From: a virus
Taxonomy: Duplodnaviria > Heunggongvirae > Uroviricota > Caudoviricetes
Strand: one strand, 5' to 3'
Length of the DNA stretch: 12,369 bases
Virus record (IMG/VR): IMGVR_UViG_2923323785_000002
Span: 1 to 12,369 of that record
The position numbers were made by a program. Below, piece by piece: positions 3,001-6,000 of this stretch. The first letter of the stretch is position 1. Every line of letters starts with the position of its first letter.

Positions 3001-6000
3001 CCGAAGTCGGTGACAGACTGCCACACGCTGTTGCGGTCAACGAGAAACGCAAACGCCGCCTGAAGAAAATCATCCCGCAACTGAAAACGCCAAACGTGGA
3101 CGGTTTCAGAGCGTATGTCAGGGCGTTTGTGCATCAGGCCAAGCCGTTTTACTTCGGAGACAACGACACGGGCTGGACAGCTGATTTTGATTACCTGCTG
3201 AGGGAAGATTCGTTAACGGGAGTTCGGGAAGGGAAGTTTGCAGACAGGGGGATTGCATGAAACAGGATATCGAAGCGAGCGTTATCGGTGGCCTGCTGAT
3301 TGGTGGATTAACACCAACTGCCAGTGACGTTCTGGCAACGCTGGAGCCGGAAGCGTTTTCAATTCCGCTCTACCGGAAAGCCTTCGAGGTTATCCGGAAG
3401 CAGGCGAGAAACAGAAACCTAATCGACGCGCTGATGGTTGCCGAGGCGTGCGGAGAGGAGCATTTCACGTCAATCCTGATGACCAGCAAAAACTGCCCGA
3501 GTGCCGCAAACCTGAAGGGATATGCCGGAATGGTCGCGGATAACTATCACCGCCGTCTGGTGCTGGAAATCATGGATGAAATGCGTGAACCAATCCAAAG
3601 CGGAACCATCGACGCATCGAGTCAGGCGATGGATGAACTTGTAAAGCGTCTTTCAGCCATCAGAAATCCCCGTGACGAGGTTAAACCTGTACGGTTAGGG
3701 GAAATCATCACTGACTACACTGACACGCTTGACAGGCGTCTGAGGAACGGAGAAGAGTCAGATACCCTGAAGACCGGAATCGACGAACTTGACGCCATCA
3801 CCGGAGGGATGAACGCAGAAGACCTGGTGATTATCGCCGCTCGTCCTGGTATGGGTAAAACCGAACTGGCGCTGAAGATTGCTGAAGGCGTTGCAAGCCG
3901 TGTTATTCCTGGTTCTGACGTCCGGCGCGGGGTATTGATTTTCTCAATGGAAATGAGCGCATTGCAGATTGCAGAGCGAAGCATTGCCAACGCCGGGAGG
4001 ATGTCGGTTAGCGTACTGCGAAATCCTGCATCGATGGATGACGAAGGCTGGGCGCGTGTTGCTAACGGCATGAGTCAGCTTGCGGATTTGGATGTATGGG
4101 AAACCGGTGTTCTTAAAAAGTTATATGCAGCTATAACAGATGACCAACAGGCTGTCGCAGAAAAATATGGCGCGGGGGAGTTATGGACGCTTGGTAAGGA
4201 GTTGGTAAAAACACGAAAATCCATTGAAGATGATGCCGTAACCGTTTTGGGTAGAAAACTTCAGCAATCAGCAATTCCAAAAGTTGAAAGTGCCGTTGTT
4301 AATATGGCAAAAGGAAACGGTGGTGACTTTAGGCAATTAATGAAGTCAATTCCAAAGGATATGCGGCAGGAAGTTGCGCTCACCTCAATGAATAAAGCAT
4401 TTACCAGCTATGCTAAATCACCAGGTCAGCAATTAGGGGTTGATGGATTTGTAAAATGGTATAACGGAATGTCACGCAATGGGGCCAATATGAAGGCTCT
4501 CCGTGATGCTATTGGCACAGATGCATCAAAGCGCCTTGATACGATTTATCAAGCAGCCAAGGCTATGAATAGACTCAATACTGGTAAGCAGTATGCTAGC
4601 AGCCTTGTGGATCAGCAAGTTAATAACTTTCTGAAGGAAAAGGGTAGTCTAGCAAAAATTTATGGAATAGCCTCAAAAGCTGCTGCTGCGGAAGGTGTTA
4701 CAAGCTTATCTGGTCTTCCTGGTGTAGGTGCAACAGGGGTGATAACGTCCGCATTGATGTCAGGGAAAACAAGCAGGATAAAGGCTGCTGATGCTCTACT
4801 GTCTTCTCCTGAGTTTAAATCAATGCTATTTCGCCTGCAAAACGCACCAGTAGACAGAGCAGAAGTGAGACGCGCAATAGAAAGGAAACTGATGCAATCT
4901 GGGGTATTTAAGAGATGGGAGAAAACCCTATCAACAGATGAAGCAAAAACCATTGCTCGCACTGGGATTATTACATGGTTATCTCAGCAAGATACTACAG
5001 CCAGTGACGGCGACCAAAAGATGTAACAAGGAACGAGATAATCCAACCAACCGTTACCATGTTAATCCCCATAAAGCCAAGGATGGCTATCTGTCAACTA
5101 AAGGACAATTGCTAATCCCCATGATCCCATTATCCGAGTACCAATAATTTCTGGAGAATTTTCCAGAAGCGCTTAGGTATTTACATTCAATCTTGTTACC
5201 GTCAGTTATTGATGAATATTTAACCCCATAACCAGTAAATGCAGACAAAACAAGTAAAAAGATTGCAAATAACCCAATAGTAAATTTTTTCATATCAACA
5301 TCCTTAGCATTTTCTTTTTACTTTTCCAACAAAAGCTTTGGTTGAATCCATATTCCCATAACCAGAAATGGTTTTCGACATTAAAACTGTTCCATTAGGA
5401 TGTATTACCCATGAGTCGATAACTCGTTGAGTTTCGCCATTCGCGCCGATTCCAATGATGGAGTTTTTAGACAATGCTTTGTAAGCCATGCCACCCGCAT
5501 CCGTCCCAGAATATGTGATGCTGGCATCTTCACCGCTTGTCTTAATGATAAATGTTCCACTAAAACCATCTTCTTCCGGTTGGAAATTATTTCGTTCTGA
5601 ATAGCTTATTCCGCGCATATCTCCAACAACCCAGCATTCTGCTGTAGCCCCAAAAGATATGAATAAGAACATACTGGCAATCAATCGCTTCACCCCAATC
5701 TCCCACTAAGGTAACAATATGACCATAGAAGAACGCCTGAACAACATTGAGTTGAATCAAACCCTGCTTGACCAGCGACTTTCAGATCTTGAGCTTAAAG
5801 ATCTTGATGCGCAAATATCAGAAGCAGAAGCCAAGCTCTCCAGCTTAAACCACCGTAAGAAGCAAATCCGCAACAGAATTACTCAGGTACGCGGAAGCTG
5901 TTGAGGTGGGATGCTAGGTCTCTATCGTTAAAATCAAGGCTGCTAATCATTTCATTGTAAATGGCGTTTTTATCTTCCATTGGCAGCCTTGAGTAAACCA

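What the first reader, a model, noticed from the sequence alone, without database searches (positions are those of the whole stretch)
5087..5693. Low-GC two-gene cargo module encoding small signal-peptide proteins
Two tightly linked minus-strand ORFs (129 and 68 aa) each begin with a Sec-type signal sequence and contain paired cysteines. They sit in markedly AT-rich DNA at the position where P22-like phages carry superinfection-exclusion or moron genes. I recognise no homologue. They are candidates for an exclusion, envelope-modifying or host-interaction function.
Basis: inference. Interest (0 to 1): 0.55.

Follow-up and report, generated by a model that had tools for sequence, protein, structure and literature searches.

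The report
Hex-like and YobH-like prophage cargo genes
The two small genes are real, but they are independent, already catalogued prophage cargo genes: a secreted beta-barrel related to the phage 434 exclusion protein Hex, and a phage-borne copy of the small YobH protein, both in the slot where phage P22 keeps its exclusion gene sieA.

Summary
Both minus-strand ORFs exist exactly as described and are conserved, selected genes.

**ORF1 (5304-5693, 129 aa)**
It belongs to phrog_2651, together with phage 434 Hex ("heterologous exclusion" of P22) and Sf6 gp38 (hhalign 99.7%, E 4.5e-26).
- The family has 124 representatives at 50% identity and no Pfam model.
- Every full-length member has a Sec-type signal peptide, an x-C-[WYF] mature N-terminus and a C-terminal Cys.
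- AlphaFold gives a small hydrophilic beta-barrel (pLDDT 86.5).

**ORF2 (5087-5293, 68 aa)**
- It is a YobH-family protein (PF13996, 39 bits against a cut-off of 27). Only this ORF is markedly AT-rich (33% GC).

**Linkage**
- The pair is translationally coupled here but is not a conserved module. ORF1 occurs in 146 of 5,426 complete E. coli genomes and ORF2 in 4.

**Position and expression**
- Both lie in the gene 16-mnt slot (the sieA position) of a degraded P22-like prophage that has no SieA homologue.
- They are probably distal genes of the mnt operon.

**Most likely function**
- ORF1 is most likely a periplasmic superinfection-exclusion factor. This is inferred, not shown.
- ORF2 is a separate exported or membrane-anchored moron.
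- The conserved export signal fits poorly with the published cytoplasmic RecA/repressor mechanism for Hex.

The parts
5304..5693 (-). ORF1, 129 aa (GTG start): Hex-family (phrog_2651) secreted small beta-barrel protein
   Evidence: ORF list. phrog_2651 at E 7.7e-61. 94-95% protein identity (tblastn) to Emek orf129. 28% identity over the full length to 434 Hex and Sf6 gp38. hhalign 99.7%. AlphaFold pLDDT 86.5. dN/dS about 0.05 in the mature part.
5640..5693 (-). ORF1 signal-peptide codons (aa 1-18, MKRLIASMFLFISFGATA); predicted cleavage ATA|ECW
   Evidence: n-, h- and c-regions read from the sequence. Across the family, -1 is Ala in 79 of 107 and -3 is A/S/V/T in 89 of 107. This segment evolves fast while the mature part is constrained.
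5700..5704 (-). Shine-Dalgarno GGGAG, 6 nt upstream of the ORF1 GTG
   Evidence: Sequence
5087..5293 (-). ORF2, 68 aa: YobH-family small protein with an N-terminal hydrophobic helix and a beta-meander containing two Cys
   Evidence: Pfam PF13996 at 39.2 bits against a cut-off of 27. RefSeq names it 'YobH family protein'. 35% identity to K-12 YobH with both Cys aligned. AlphaFold pLDDT 67: helix 2-19 plus 4 strands. 33.3% GC.
5301..5306 (-). ORF1 stop codon TAA overlapping the ORF2 Shine-Dalgarno AAGGA (translational coupling)
   Evidence: Sequence
5070..5088 (-). Weak hairpin (AGCCA-TCCT-TGGCT) followed by TTAT just after the ORF2 stop; possible weak terminator between the convergent ORF2 and gene-16 homologue
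   Evidence: RNA fold of the region. It was not picked up by the consensus terminator scan.
5879..6342 (-). mnt (6085-6342) and orf69 (5879-6088): upstream genes on the same strand, the likely operon to which ORF1 and ORF2 belong
   Evidence: Arc/Mnt Pfam and PHROG hits. In E7476, APEC O2-211 and E. albertii the ORF1 homologue follows mnt-strand genes directly.
6365..6393 (-). Promoter-like site TTGATA-17-TATCCT upstream of mnt (Pmnt equivalent); the best leftward promoter candidate for ORF1 and ORF2
   Evidence: Promoter scans. No site of 9/12 or better lies between mnt and ORF1. No terminator-like site or strong hairpin lies on that strand between 5694 and 5885.

Best explanation
The finding covers two unrelated accessory genes (morons) of a degraded P22-like prophage. 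Here they have been recombined into a translationally coupled pair at the far end of the leftward mnt (lysogeny-maintenance) operon.

**ORF1.** It is a member of the Hex family. It is made with a Sec signal peptide that is cut after Ala18, and it folds in the periplasm into a hydrophilic, roughly 12-kDa eight-to-nine-stranded beta-barrel. The first and last strands are probably tied by a Cys20-Cys129 disulfide. By analogy with phage 434 Hex, which is needed for exclusion of P22, and because it occupies the sieA slot in a prophage without sieA, it most likely acts in the cell envelope of the lysogen to block infection by other phages, probably P22-like ones, at or soon after genome delivery.

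**ORF2.** It is a phage-borne paralogue of the small exported or membrane-anchored protein YobH. It probably acts separately on the envelope or on host interaction.

**Shown.** Gene reality, family membership, export signal, fold, genomic slot, and independence of the two genes.

**Inferred.** Transcription from Pmnt in lysogens, the disulfide, the periplasmic site of action, and the exclusion function.

**Confidence.** About 0.9 for the identities. About 0.45 for the exclusion mechanism, which is the figure reported below as the overall confidence.
For: **Family membership.**
- ORF1 and 434 Hex both fall in phrog_2651.
- tblastn to 434, Sf6, HK446 and HK633 covers the full length at E 8e-7 to 5e-5.
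- Pairwise BLASTP gives 28% identity, E 2e-13.
- The profile-profile comparison gives 99.7%, E 4.5e-26.
- The 434 ORF is the published Hex: 24 upstream codons plus 134 aa give the paper's 158 aa.

**Export.**
- All 107 full-length sequences analysed (ORF1 plus 106 representatives) have a hydrophobic leader followed by Cys plus a hydrophobic, mostly aromatic residue (W/Y/F in 100 of 107).
- 104 of 107 have a Cys in the last 12 residues.
- Ala dominates at -1.

**Fold.**
- AlphaFold pLDDT is 86.5, all-beta.
- The mature protein has GRAVY -0.34 and 24 charged residues out of 111, and several strands are only 4-6 residues long.

**Published phenotype of Hex (PMC3564112).**
- lambda-imm434 lysogens of Salmonella exclude P22 and hex- lysogens do not.

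**Context.**
- ORF1-type genes recur in the gene 16-mnt/tailspike slot.
- Hex-type genes recur directly after a cI-type repressor.
- One member sits beside RexA/RexB.
- A Serratia P22-like element carries two divergent tandem copies.
- No SieA homologue is present.
- Only 22 of 66 P22-like phages have sieA (PMC10883804).

**Expression.** The only good leftward promoter is upstream of mnt, and no terminator intervenes.

**ORF2.** See, and PMC6726612.
Against: - No experiment exists for ORF1 or ORF2.
- The only biochemical study of the family reports a cytoplasmic activity: Hex blocks RecA-stimulated cleavage of the 434 and P22 repressors.
- The original exclusion phenotype comes from a 1980 paper that I know only through its citation, and the stage at which P22 is blocked is unknown to me.
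- No signal-peptide predictor was available. Cleavage is inferred from sequence rules and family conservation.
- The prophage here is a remnant with no recognisable cI/c2 repressor, so whether Pmnt is active is unknown.
- P22 itself terminates the mnt transcript before sieA and gives sieA its own promoter, so read-through here is not guaranteed.
- The fold is generic and points to no ligand or partner.
Confidence: 0.45

Rival explanations
1. ORF1 and ORF2 are lysogenic-conversion factors that change host envelope properties or host-animal interaction (for example invasion, serum or antimicrobial-peptide resistance, or envelope-stress tolerance), as lambda Bor/Lom and Salmonella YobH do, rather than excluding phages.
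For: - Both products are exported or membrane-associated.
- Salmonella YobH is required for invasion of HeLa cells and macrophages, and the authors' preliminary data suggest it is secreted (PMC6726612).
- The ORF1 fold resembles generic ligand-binding calycin or avidin-type barrels.
- The slot also carries non-exclusion cargo, such as a Rap1a-family gene in E. albertii.
Against: - The only phenotype known for a relative of ORF1 concerns phages.
- ORF1-family genes sit in classic exclusion slots: after cI, at the sieA position, and beside RexAB.
- The phage-borne YobH paralogue is only 35% identical to the chromosomal one and lacks its HilD-SprB regulatory context.
Confidence: 0.25
2. ORF1 works as published for 434 Hex. 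It acts in the cytoplasm and binds the prophage's 434/P22-type repressor, shielding it from RecA-stimulated autocleavage and so stabilising lysogeny.
For: PMC3564112:
- A hex deletion raises spontaneous induction about 30-fold, and only in recA+ cells.
- A 61-residue fragment, sHex, partly complements the defect and blocks cleavage of the 434 and P22 repressors in vitro.

ORF1 resides in a P22-like prophage, the type whose repressor sHex protected.
Against: - The signal peptide and terminal Cys pair are conserved across the whole family.
- sHex begins exactly at the predicted signal-peptidase site (E43 of the 158-aa ORF = E19) and covers only 61 of 116 mature residues, about half of the predicted barrel. 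It cannot adopt the native fold.
- Family members occur in slots unrelated to a repressor: the gene-16 slot, a tail-gene moron, and beside RexAB.
- This remnant has no recognisable cI/c2 gene.
Confidence: 0.12
3. ORF1 and ORF2 form an obligate two-component system, for example a periplasmic sensor plus a membrane anchor, that works only as a pair.
For: - There is a 10-nt gap, with the ORF1 stop inside the ORF2 Shine-Dalgarno sequence.
- All 4 complete E. coli genomes with ORF2 also have ORF1 next to it.
- E. albertii carries both in the same slot.
Against: - 142 of the 146 E. coli genomes with ORF1 lack ORF2.
- Emek, ST-35 and APEC O2-211 have ORF1 alone.
- The Salmonella phage contig S.Kent 1-2-1 has the YobH-like gene alone.
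- In E. albertii two opposite-strand genes separate them.
- The two genes differ in GC (40.5% against 33.3%), which suggests separate origins.
Confidence: 0.05
4. ORF1 is an outer-membrane-embedded 8-stranded barrel (OmpX/Ail/Lom/PagP-like) that alters the cell surface or masks a receptor.
For: - The phage Huey record annotates its Hex copy as 'PagP'.
Against: - The mature protein is only 111 aa and hydrophilic (GRAVY -0.34).
- Several strands are 4-6 residues long, and charges occur on both faces of the long strands.
- The C-terminus is ...KRKC, not an aromatic beta-signal.
- The conserved Cys pair is unusual for outer-membrane barrels.
- There is no Pfam or NCBIfam outer-membrane-protein hit for ORF1 or for 70 relatives.
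- Soluble barrels (Cap15, avidins, NHBA, FABP-like) score equally well.
Confidence: 0.05

Closest known systems
Phage 434 Hex (heterologous exclusion protein; annotated 'repressor protection protein') and Sf6 gp38, both in phrog_2651
   Same: - Homologous over the full length (28% identity; hhalign 99.7%).
- Same size, signal peptide, x-C-W mature N-terminus, [DE]-x-W motif and F-V-G-x-V-x-x-C C-terminus.
- Prophage-encoded, and placed downstream of a lysogeny regulator on the same strand.
   Different: - Different slot and operon: ORF1 lies after mnt in immI at the sieA position, whereas hex lies directly after cI in the PRM transcript.
- ORF1 belongs to a distinct subfamily, 64-98% identical (mostly 88-98%) among its full-length E. 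coli and Salmonella members and about 28% identical to Hex.
- No phenotype has been tested for ORF1.
P22 SieA (inner-membrane superinfection-exclusion protein)
   Same: - Same genomic position: convergent with gene 16, between gene 16 and mnt/gene 9.
- Presumed expression in the lysogen.
- Presumed action in the envelope against P22-like phages.
   Different: - No sequence similarity.
- SieA is a 3-TM inner-membrane protein without a signal sequence (PMC10883804). ORF1 is a soluble secreted barrel.
- P22 sieA has its own promoter.
YobH (E. coli b4536; Salmonella SL1344_1770), Pfam PF13996
   Same: - ORF2 passes the Pfam gathering threshold.
- It shares the N-terminal hydrophobic helix, the GYGV motif and both cysteines (35% identity over 52 aa).
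   Different: - ORF2 is prophage-borne in the gene-16 slot, not at the chromosomal mgrB-kdgR locus.
- It is 11 residues shorter at the C-terminus and has 33% GC.
- Its regulation and function are untested.
Small periplasmic or lipoprotein exclusion factors of other phages (T5 Llp, phi80/N15 Cor, T4 Sp) - recalled from general knowledge, not tested here
   Same: They are small exported prophage or phage proteins that act in the envelope to stop genome entry of superinfecting phages.
   Different: - No homology was found: there were no PADLOC hits for ORF1.
- ORF1 lacks a lipobox; Cys is at +2, after a variable residue.

Membership tests
Hex family (phrog_2651; phage 434 Hex, Sf6 gp38) | Full-length sequence homology to 434 Hex | tested here: met
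   - phrog_2651 at E 7.7e-61 for ORF1 and 1.4e-58 for Hex.
- BLASTP 28% identity, E 2e-13.
- hhalign of the ORF1 subfamily against the Hex subfamily: 99.7%, E 4.5e-26 over 128 columns.
Hex family (phrog_2651; phage 434 Hex, Sf6 gp38) | N-terminal signal peptide, Cys at mature position 2 followed by W/Y/F, C-terminal Cys, and conserved G28, D42, W95 and G123 | tested here: met
   ORF1 has all of these. Frequencies across the 107 full-length sequences analysed (ORF1 plus 106 representatives): C20 100%, G28 99%, G123 98%, C129 98%, W95 88%, D42 86%.
Hex family (phrog_2651; phage 434 Hex, Sf6 gp38) | Co-transcription with a lysogeny-maintenance repressor in the prophage state | tested here: inconclusive
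   ORF1 is on the same strand as mnt and downstream of it. The only 9/12 promoter match is upstream of mnt and no terminator was found. There are no expression data, and P22 terminates the mnt transcript before this slot.
Hex family (phrog_2651; phage 434 Hex, Sf6 gp38) | Exclusion of a heterologous phage (P22) by the lysogen | not testable with these tools
   The phenotype is reported for 434 hex only (PMC3564112, citing Susskind and Botstein 1980).
Hex family (phrog_2651; phage 434 Hex, Sf6 gp38) | Inhibition of RecA-stimulated autocleavage of the 434/P22 repressor | not testable with these tools
   This is a biochemical property reported for the sHex fragment (PMC3564112). The conserved export signal makes it questionable as the native role.
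YobH family (Pfam PF13996) | Match to the Pfam model above its gathering score | tested here: met
   ORF2 scores 39.2 bits against a cut-off of 27, E 7.6e-10, covering residues 9-66 of 68. RefSeq names identical proteins 'YobH family protein'.
YobH family (Pfam PF13996) | N-terminal hydrophobic segment, GYGV motif and two conserved cysteines, as in E. coli K-12 YobH | tested here: met
   BLASTP to K-12 YobH gives 35% identity over 52 aa. C37 and C63 of ORF2 align with the two YobH cysteines.
YobH family (Pfam PF13996) | Orthology with chromosomal yobH (mgrB-yobH-kdgR locus; HilD-SprB control in Salmonella) | tested here: not met
   ORF2 lies in a prophage next to the gene-16 homologue. K-12 yobH lies between mgrB and kdgR. 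ORF2 is therefore a paralogue, not the orthologue.
SieA superinfection-exclusion proteins | Sequence similarity to P22 SieA (types A-C) and three transmembrane segments | tested here: not met
   tblastn of P22 SieA against the window and all fetched loci gives nothing below E = 3.8. ORF1 has a single N-terminal leader and ORF2 a single hydrophobic helix.
SieA superinfection-exclusion proteins | Location between the homologues of P22 genes 16 and 9 | tested here: met
   The gene-16 homologue ends at 5026, mnt is at 6085-6342 and the tailspike at 7993-9828.
Outer-membrane 8-stranded barrels (OmpX/Ail/Lom, PagP) | Membrane-spanning strands with one lipid-facing hydrophobic face, a C-terminal aromatic beta-signal, and family HMM hits | tested here: not met
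   Strands are 4-14 residues long with charges on both faces. The C-terminus is KRKC. GRAVY is -0.34. There are no Pfam or NCBIfam outer-membrane-protein hits.

The most novel reading that the evidence does not exclude
The Hex family (phrog_2651, with at least 124 clusters at 50% identity and no Pfam model) is a widespread, unrecognised class of periplasmic superinfection-exclusion proteins. Its members intercept the trans-envelope DNA-delivery apparatus of incoming phages, for example the gp7/gp20/gp16 ejection-protein conduit of P22-like phages. In many P22-like prophages a Hex-like gene functionally replaces SieA. The published cytoplasmic RecA/repressor activity of Hex is a side effect of expressing a truncated, signal-less half-barrel.
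Probability: 0.3. Interest if true: 0.65.

Novelty: new member of a known kind. Interest (0 to 1): 0.4.

Why it matters
- Only about a third of P22-like phages carry sieA (22 of 66; PMC10883804). What protects lysogens of the others is not established.
- A Hex-like secreted barrel in the same slot is a concrete, easily testable candidate. ORF1 is present in 146 of 5,426 complete E. coli genomes (2.7%).
- The analysis also raises a problem with the only mechanistic paper on the family. Every member carries an export signal and a terminal Cys pair, and the "active fragment" sHex starts at the predicted signal-peptidase site and spans only half of the predicted barrel.
- Settling whether Hex proteins work in the periplasm or the cytoplasm would clarify a 45-year-old exclusion phenotype. 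It would also give a function to a family that Pfam does not cover and that PHROGs and PGAP leave without a function.

Tried and rejected
- Pfam, NCBIfam and PADLOC gave no significant hit for ORF1. Pfam also gave no hit for 70 relatives.
- PDB sequence-profile searches with the narrow and the broad alignment found nothing.
- The locus scan with the broad alignment failed because no stretch was conserved enough. The narrow alignment found only one extra species-level locus, in Symbiopectobacterium.
- The second YobH search returned only the same five clusters, so the ORF2 model stayed shallow (pLDDT 67). I did not use it for fold search.
- No internal promoter was found for ORF1. The best candidate between mnt and ORF1 is an 8/12 match at 5842-5814.
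- Distant family members come from unnamed metagenome contigs, so the taxonomic range beyond Enterobacterales is unresolved.
- The plus-strand ORFs inside the finding (5427-5600 and 4938-5147) have no support and were disregarded.
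Full report
**Setting**

The window is an Escherichia-type chromosome segment. It runs from an oligosaccharide/sucrose-type MFS permease gene (1-1248) to a yfdC-like gene (11437-12369). Between them, a roughly 10-kb remnant of a P22-like prophage is integrated at tRNA-Arg(CCT) (11287-11361) beside an IntS-type integrase gene (9968-11161).

The remnant keeps these parts:
- a replication-initiator gene (2481-3260);
- an ORF (3257-5026) that fuses the N-half of a DnaB-type helicase to the last ~300 residues of a gene-16-type ejection protein, so a deletion has removed the nin, lysis and head genes;
- a complete immI region: mnt 6085-6342 (-), arc 6442-6582 (+), the sar antisense RNA 6816-6883 (-) at 81 bits, and ant 6885-7814 (+);
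- a tailspike gene (7993-9828).

The finding lies between the gene-16 remnant and mnt. This is where P22 carries sieA.

**Observation**

Both ORFs are present as described.
- ORF1 (5304-5693, minus strand) starts with GTG, preceded by GGGAG at a 6-nt spacing.
- ORF2 (5087-5293, minus strand) starts with ATG, preceded by AAGGA at a 7-nt spacing. The TAA stop of ORF1 lies inside that Shine-Dalgarno sequence, so the two genes are translationally coupled here.

They are real genes.
- The mature part of ORF1 has dN/dS of about 0.04-0.08 against most of the five homologues compared. Its first 18 codons change quickly but remain hydrophobic, which is the signature of a signal peptide.
- An ATG in E. 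albertii at the position of the window's GTG supports the 129-aa start rather than RefSeq's 122-aa call.
- ORF2 has dN/dS of about 0.25-0.3 against its 65%-identical relatives.

The AT-richness claim holds only in part: ORF2 is 33.3% GC, ORF1 is 40.5%, and the window is 44.6%.

**What ORF1 is**

ORF1 has no Pfam, NCBIfam or PADLOC hit. It matches phrog_2651, a family of unknown function, at E 7.7e-61. Close copies occur as follows:
- phages Emek (94-95% protein identity) and ST-35 (about 93%), right after their gene-16 homologues;
- 146 of 5,426 complete E. coli genomes.

A translated search of phage genomes found full-length matches at about 28% identity in Sf6 (gene 38), HK446, HK633, Sf101 and phage 434. 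In 434 the gene overlaps the end of cI and is annotated "repressor protection protein". Extending that 134-aa ORF by 24 in-frame upstream codons gives 158 aa, the length of the Hex ORF of Shkilnyj et al. 2013 (PMC3564112). The 434 homologue is therefore Hex.

Homology is firm:
- BLASTP E 2e-13;
- hhalign of the two subfamilies 99.7%, E 4.5e-26;
- both proteins hit phrog_2651.

**The family**

An exhaustive profile search of 1.8 billion cluster representatives found 124 members at E <= 0.001, nearly all 120-140 aa and matching end to end. I analysed 107 full-length sequences, ORF1 plus 106 representatives.
- All 107 have a hydrophobic leader followed by Cys plus a hydrophobic, mostly aromatic residue (W/Y/F in 100 of 107).
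- Position -1 is Ala in 79 sequences, and -3 is A/S/V/T in 89.
- The residue before the Cys varies, so the cleavage site is a signal peptidase I site and not a lipobox.
- 104 have a Cys within the last 12 residues.
- C20, G28, G123 and C129 are 98-100% conserved.

Seventy members gave no Pfam hit. Named relatives come from Serratia, Pantoea, Trabulsiella, Cronobacter, Affinibrenneria and Symbiopectobacterium, and all are annotated "hypothetical".

**Structure**

AlphaFold predicts an all-beta barrel of eight to nine strands with pLDDT 86.5.
- Foldseek against the PDB and against viral models finds nothing specific.

The mature protein is hydrophilic (GRAVY -0.34, 24 charged residues of 111). 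Several of its strands are only 4-6 residues long. It ends in KRKC rather than in an aromatic residue. I therefore read it as a soluble periplasmic barrel rather than an outer-membrane protein. The first and last strands carry the two invariant cysteines and should be neighbours in a closed meander barrel, so a disulfide between them is plausible. I could not measure that distance, so this is an inference.

**What is known about Hex, and a discrepancy**

According to PMC3564112:
- hex is co-transcribed with cI from PRM;
- lambda-imm434 lysogens of Salmonella exclude P22, and hex- lysogens do not (they cite Susskind and Botstein 1980);
- deleting hex raises RecA-dependent spontaneous induction;
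- overexpression of full-length Hex kills cells;
- a 6-kDa fragment, sHex (E43-N103), inhibits RecA-stimulated cleavage of the 434 and P22 repressors in vitro.

The paper does not mention a signal peptide or membranes.

In the numbering of the 134-aa ORF, E43 is E19. That is the first residue after the predicted cleavage site ANS|ECW. sHex covers 61 of the 116 mature residues, which is about half of the predicted barrel. A universally conserved export signal plus a terminal Cys pair is hard to reconcile with a cytoplasmic site of action. The older exclusion phenotype fits an envelope protein better. This is my inference and has not been demonstrated.

**Context across genomes**

Family members recur in a few kinds of prophage positions.
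1. The gene 16-mnt/tailspike slot of P22-like elements: Emek, E. coli PSJ-36, E7476 and APEC O2-211, E. albertii, a 68%-identical relative, and Serratia.
   - The Serratia element carries two divergent tandem copies.
2. Directly after a cI-type repressor: 434, Sf6 and Huey, and Cronobacter prophages with an 8-bp gap.
3. One Serratia member is an opposite-strand moron inside a siphovirus tail-gene cluster. In one genome it lies beside RexA/RexB.

None of the loci examined, nor the window, has a SieA homologue. The SieA study reports sieA in only 22 of 66 P22-like phages and does not mention Hex.

In the window, the only 9/12 leftward promoter match is upstream of mnt (6393-6365). I found no terminator on that strand before ORF1. 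In E7476, APEC O2-211 and E. albertii the ORF1 homologue follows mnt-strand genes directly. ORF1 is therefore probably a distal gene of the mnt operon, in parallel with PRM-cI-hex. P22, however, terminates the mnt transcript before sieA, so this needs RNA data.

**What ORF2 is**

ORF2 passes the Pfam YobH model at 39.2 bits against a cut-off of 27. It aligns with E. coli K-12 YobH at 35% identity, with the GYGV motif and both cysteines conserved.

The Salmonella orthologue of YobH is a HilD-SprB-controlled invasion factor that the authors suspect is secreted (PMC6726612).

The ORF2 model has low confidence (pLDDT 67). It shows a helix at 2-19 followed by a four-strand meander. Whether the helix is cleaved or acts as an anchor cannot be decided here.

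ORF2-type genes are rare.
- They occur in 4 of 5,426 complete E. coli genomes, in E. albertii, and in one Salmonella phage contig.
- In all the E. coli, E. albertii and Salmonella loci whose layout I examined, the gene sits immediately beside the 3' end of the gene-16 homologue.

**Are the two a module?**

No.
- 142 of the 146 E. coli genomes with ORF1 lack ORF2.
- The Salmonella contig has the ORF2 type without ORF1.
- In E. albertii two opposite-strand genes separate them.
- Their GC contents differ.
- Similarity to other genomes breaks exactly at the ends of the ORF1 cassette, at window positions 5305 and 5703.

The tight pair in this window is a rare recombinant arrangement, shared with four sequenced strains.

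**Verdict**

ORF1 is a new member, in a new genomic slot, of the little-studied Hex family. ORF2 is a phage-borne YobH paralogue.

The most likely mechanism for ORF1 is envelope-level exclusion of superinfecting phages. My confidence in that is about 0.45. The rivals are lysogenic conversion of envelope or virulence properties (0.25), the published repressor-protection role (0.12), an obligate two-component system (0.05) and an outer-membrane barrel (0.05).

Interest is moderate. The genes are ordinary prophage cargo. The family-wide export signal, however, challenges the only published mechanism, and the sieA-slot location gives a directly testable hypothesis.

Noticed in passing
window 3257-5026 (+): This is a single 589-aa ORF. 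It fuses the N-half of a DnaB-type helicase (aa 1-280) to the C-terminal ~300 aa of a gene-16-type ejection protein (phrog_6704, profile positions 410-706 of 707). A deletion has removed the nin, lysis and head genes, so the prophage is a roughly 10-kb remnant with no recognisable cI/c2 gene.
   Followed up: partly
window 6816-6883 (-): The sar antisense RNA (Rfam RF00262, 81 bits) lies between orf80 and ant. The P22-type immI region (mnt, arc, sar, ant) is intact in an otherwise gutted prophage.
   Followed up: partly
window 5719-5904 (+): orf61 is a conserved coiled-coil ORF (phrog_7586; RefSeq 'hemolysin XhlA family protein'). It starts 25 bp from the ORF1 start on the opposite strand, and its 3' end overlaps the 3' end of orf69. 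If ORF1 is transcribed from Pmnt, that transcript is antisense to orf61.
   Followed up: no
L004 2501-2905 (phage 434) and PMC3564112: The published active fragment sHex starts at E43 of the 158-aa ORF. That is the first residue after the predicted signal-peptidase site (ANS|ECW). sHex ends at N103, so it spans only 61 of 116 mature residues. The paper reports unexplained toxicity of full-length Hex and does not mention a signal peptide.
   Followed up: yes
L017 3359-3745 and 3778-4164 (Serratia P22-like element): Two divergent Hex-family genes lie in tandem next to the gene-16 homologue (hhalign 99.9% for the second copy). Such duplication and divergence is what one might expect of a factor under arms-race selection.
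   Followed up: partly
L020 4001-4384 (Serratia siphovirus-type prophage): A Hex-family gene sits as an opposite-strand moron inside a tail-gene cluster, directly beside RexA and RexB homologues. In a sister genome (L019) other small genes replace the RexAB pair.
   Followed up: no
L008 2612-2947 (E. albertii prophage): A Rap1a-family gene (PF18602, a type VI secretion immunity protein family) lies directly after mnt and before the ORF1 homologue. The mnt operon thus carries varied envelope-defence cargo.
   Followed up: no
L002 6605-6973, L003 6605-6973 and L009 3001-3369 (RefSeq annotations): RefSeq (PGAP) calls the ORF1 homologues as 122 aa from an internal ATG. This drops the charged n-region of the signal peptide. 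Comparative evidence (the Shine-Dalgarno sequence and an ATG at the upstream position in E. albertii) favours 129 aa.
   Followed up: yes
L006 2501-2905 (phage Huey): The Hex copy of phage Huey is annotated as 'lipid A acylation protein PagP'. No Pfam or NCBIfam evidence supports this. It probably reflects generic barrel similarity.
   Followed up: partly
L001 4758-5631 (phage Emek): In Emek the same slot also carries a DUF4065-domain gene and a 161-aa ORF on the opposite strand, followed by a terminator. The slot is highly mosaic between otherwise similar phages.
   Followed up: no
window 1-12369: No complete E. coli genome in the collection (5,426 genomes) contains this arrangement. The best coverage is 47%, although the flanks (permease, intS, yfdC) are typical E. 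coli sequence.
   Followed up: partly
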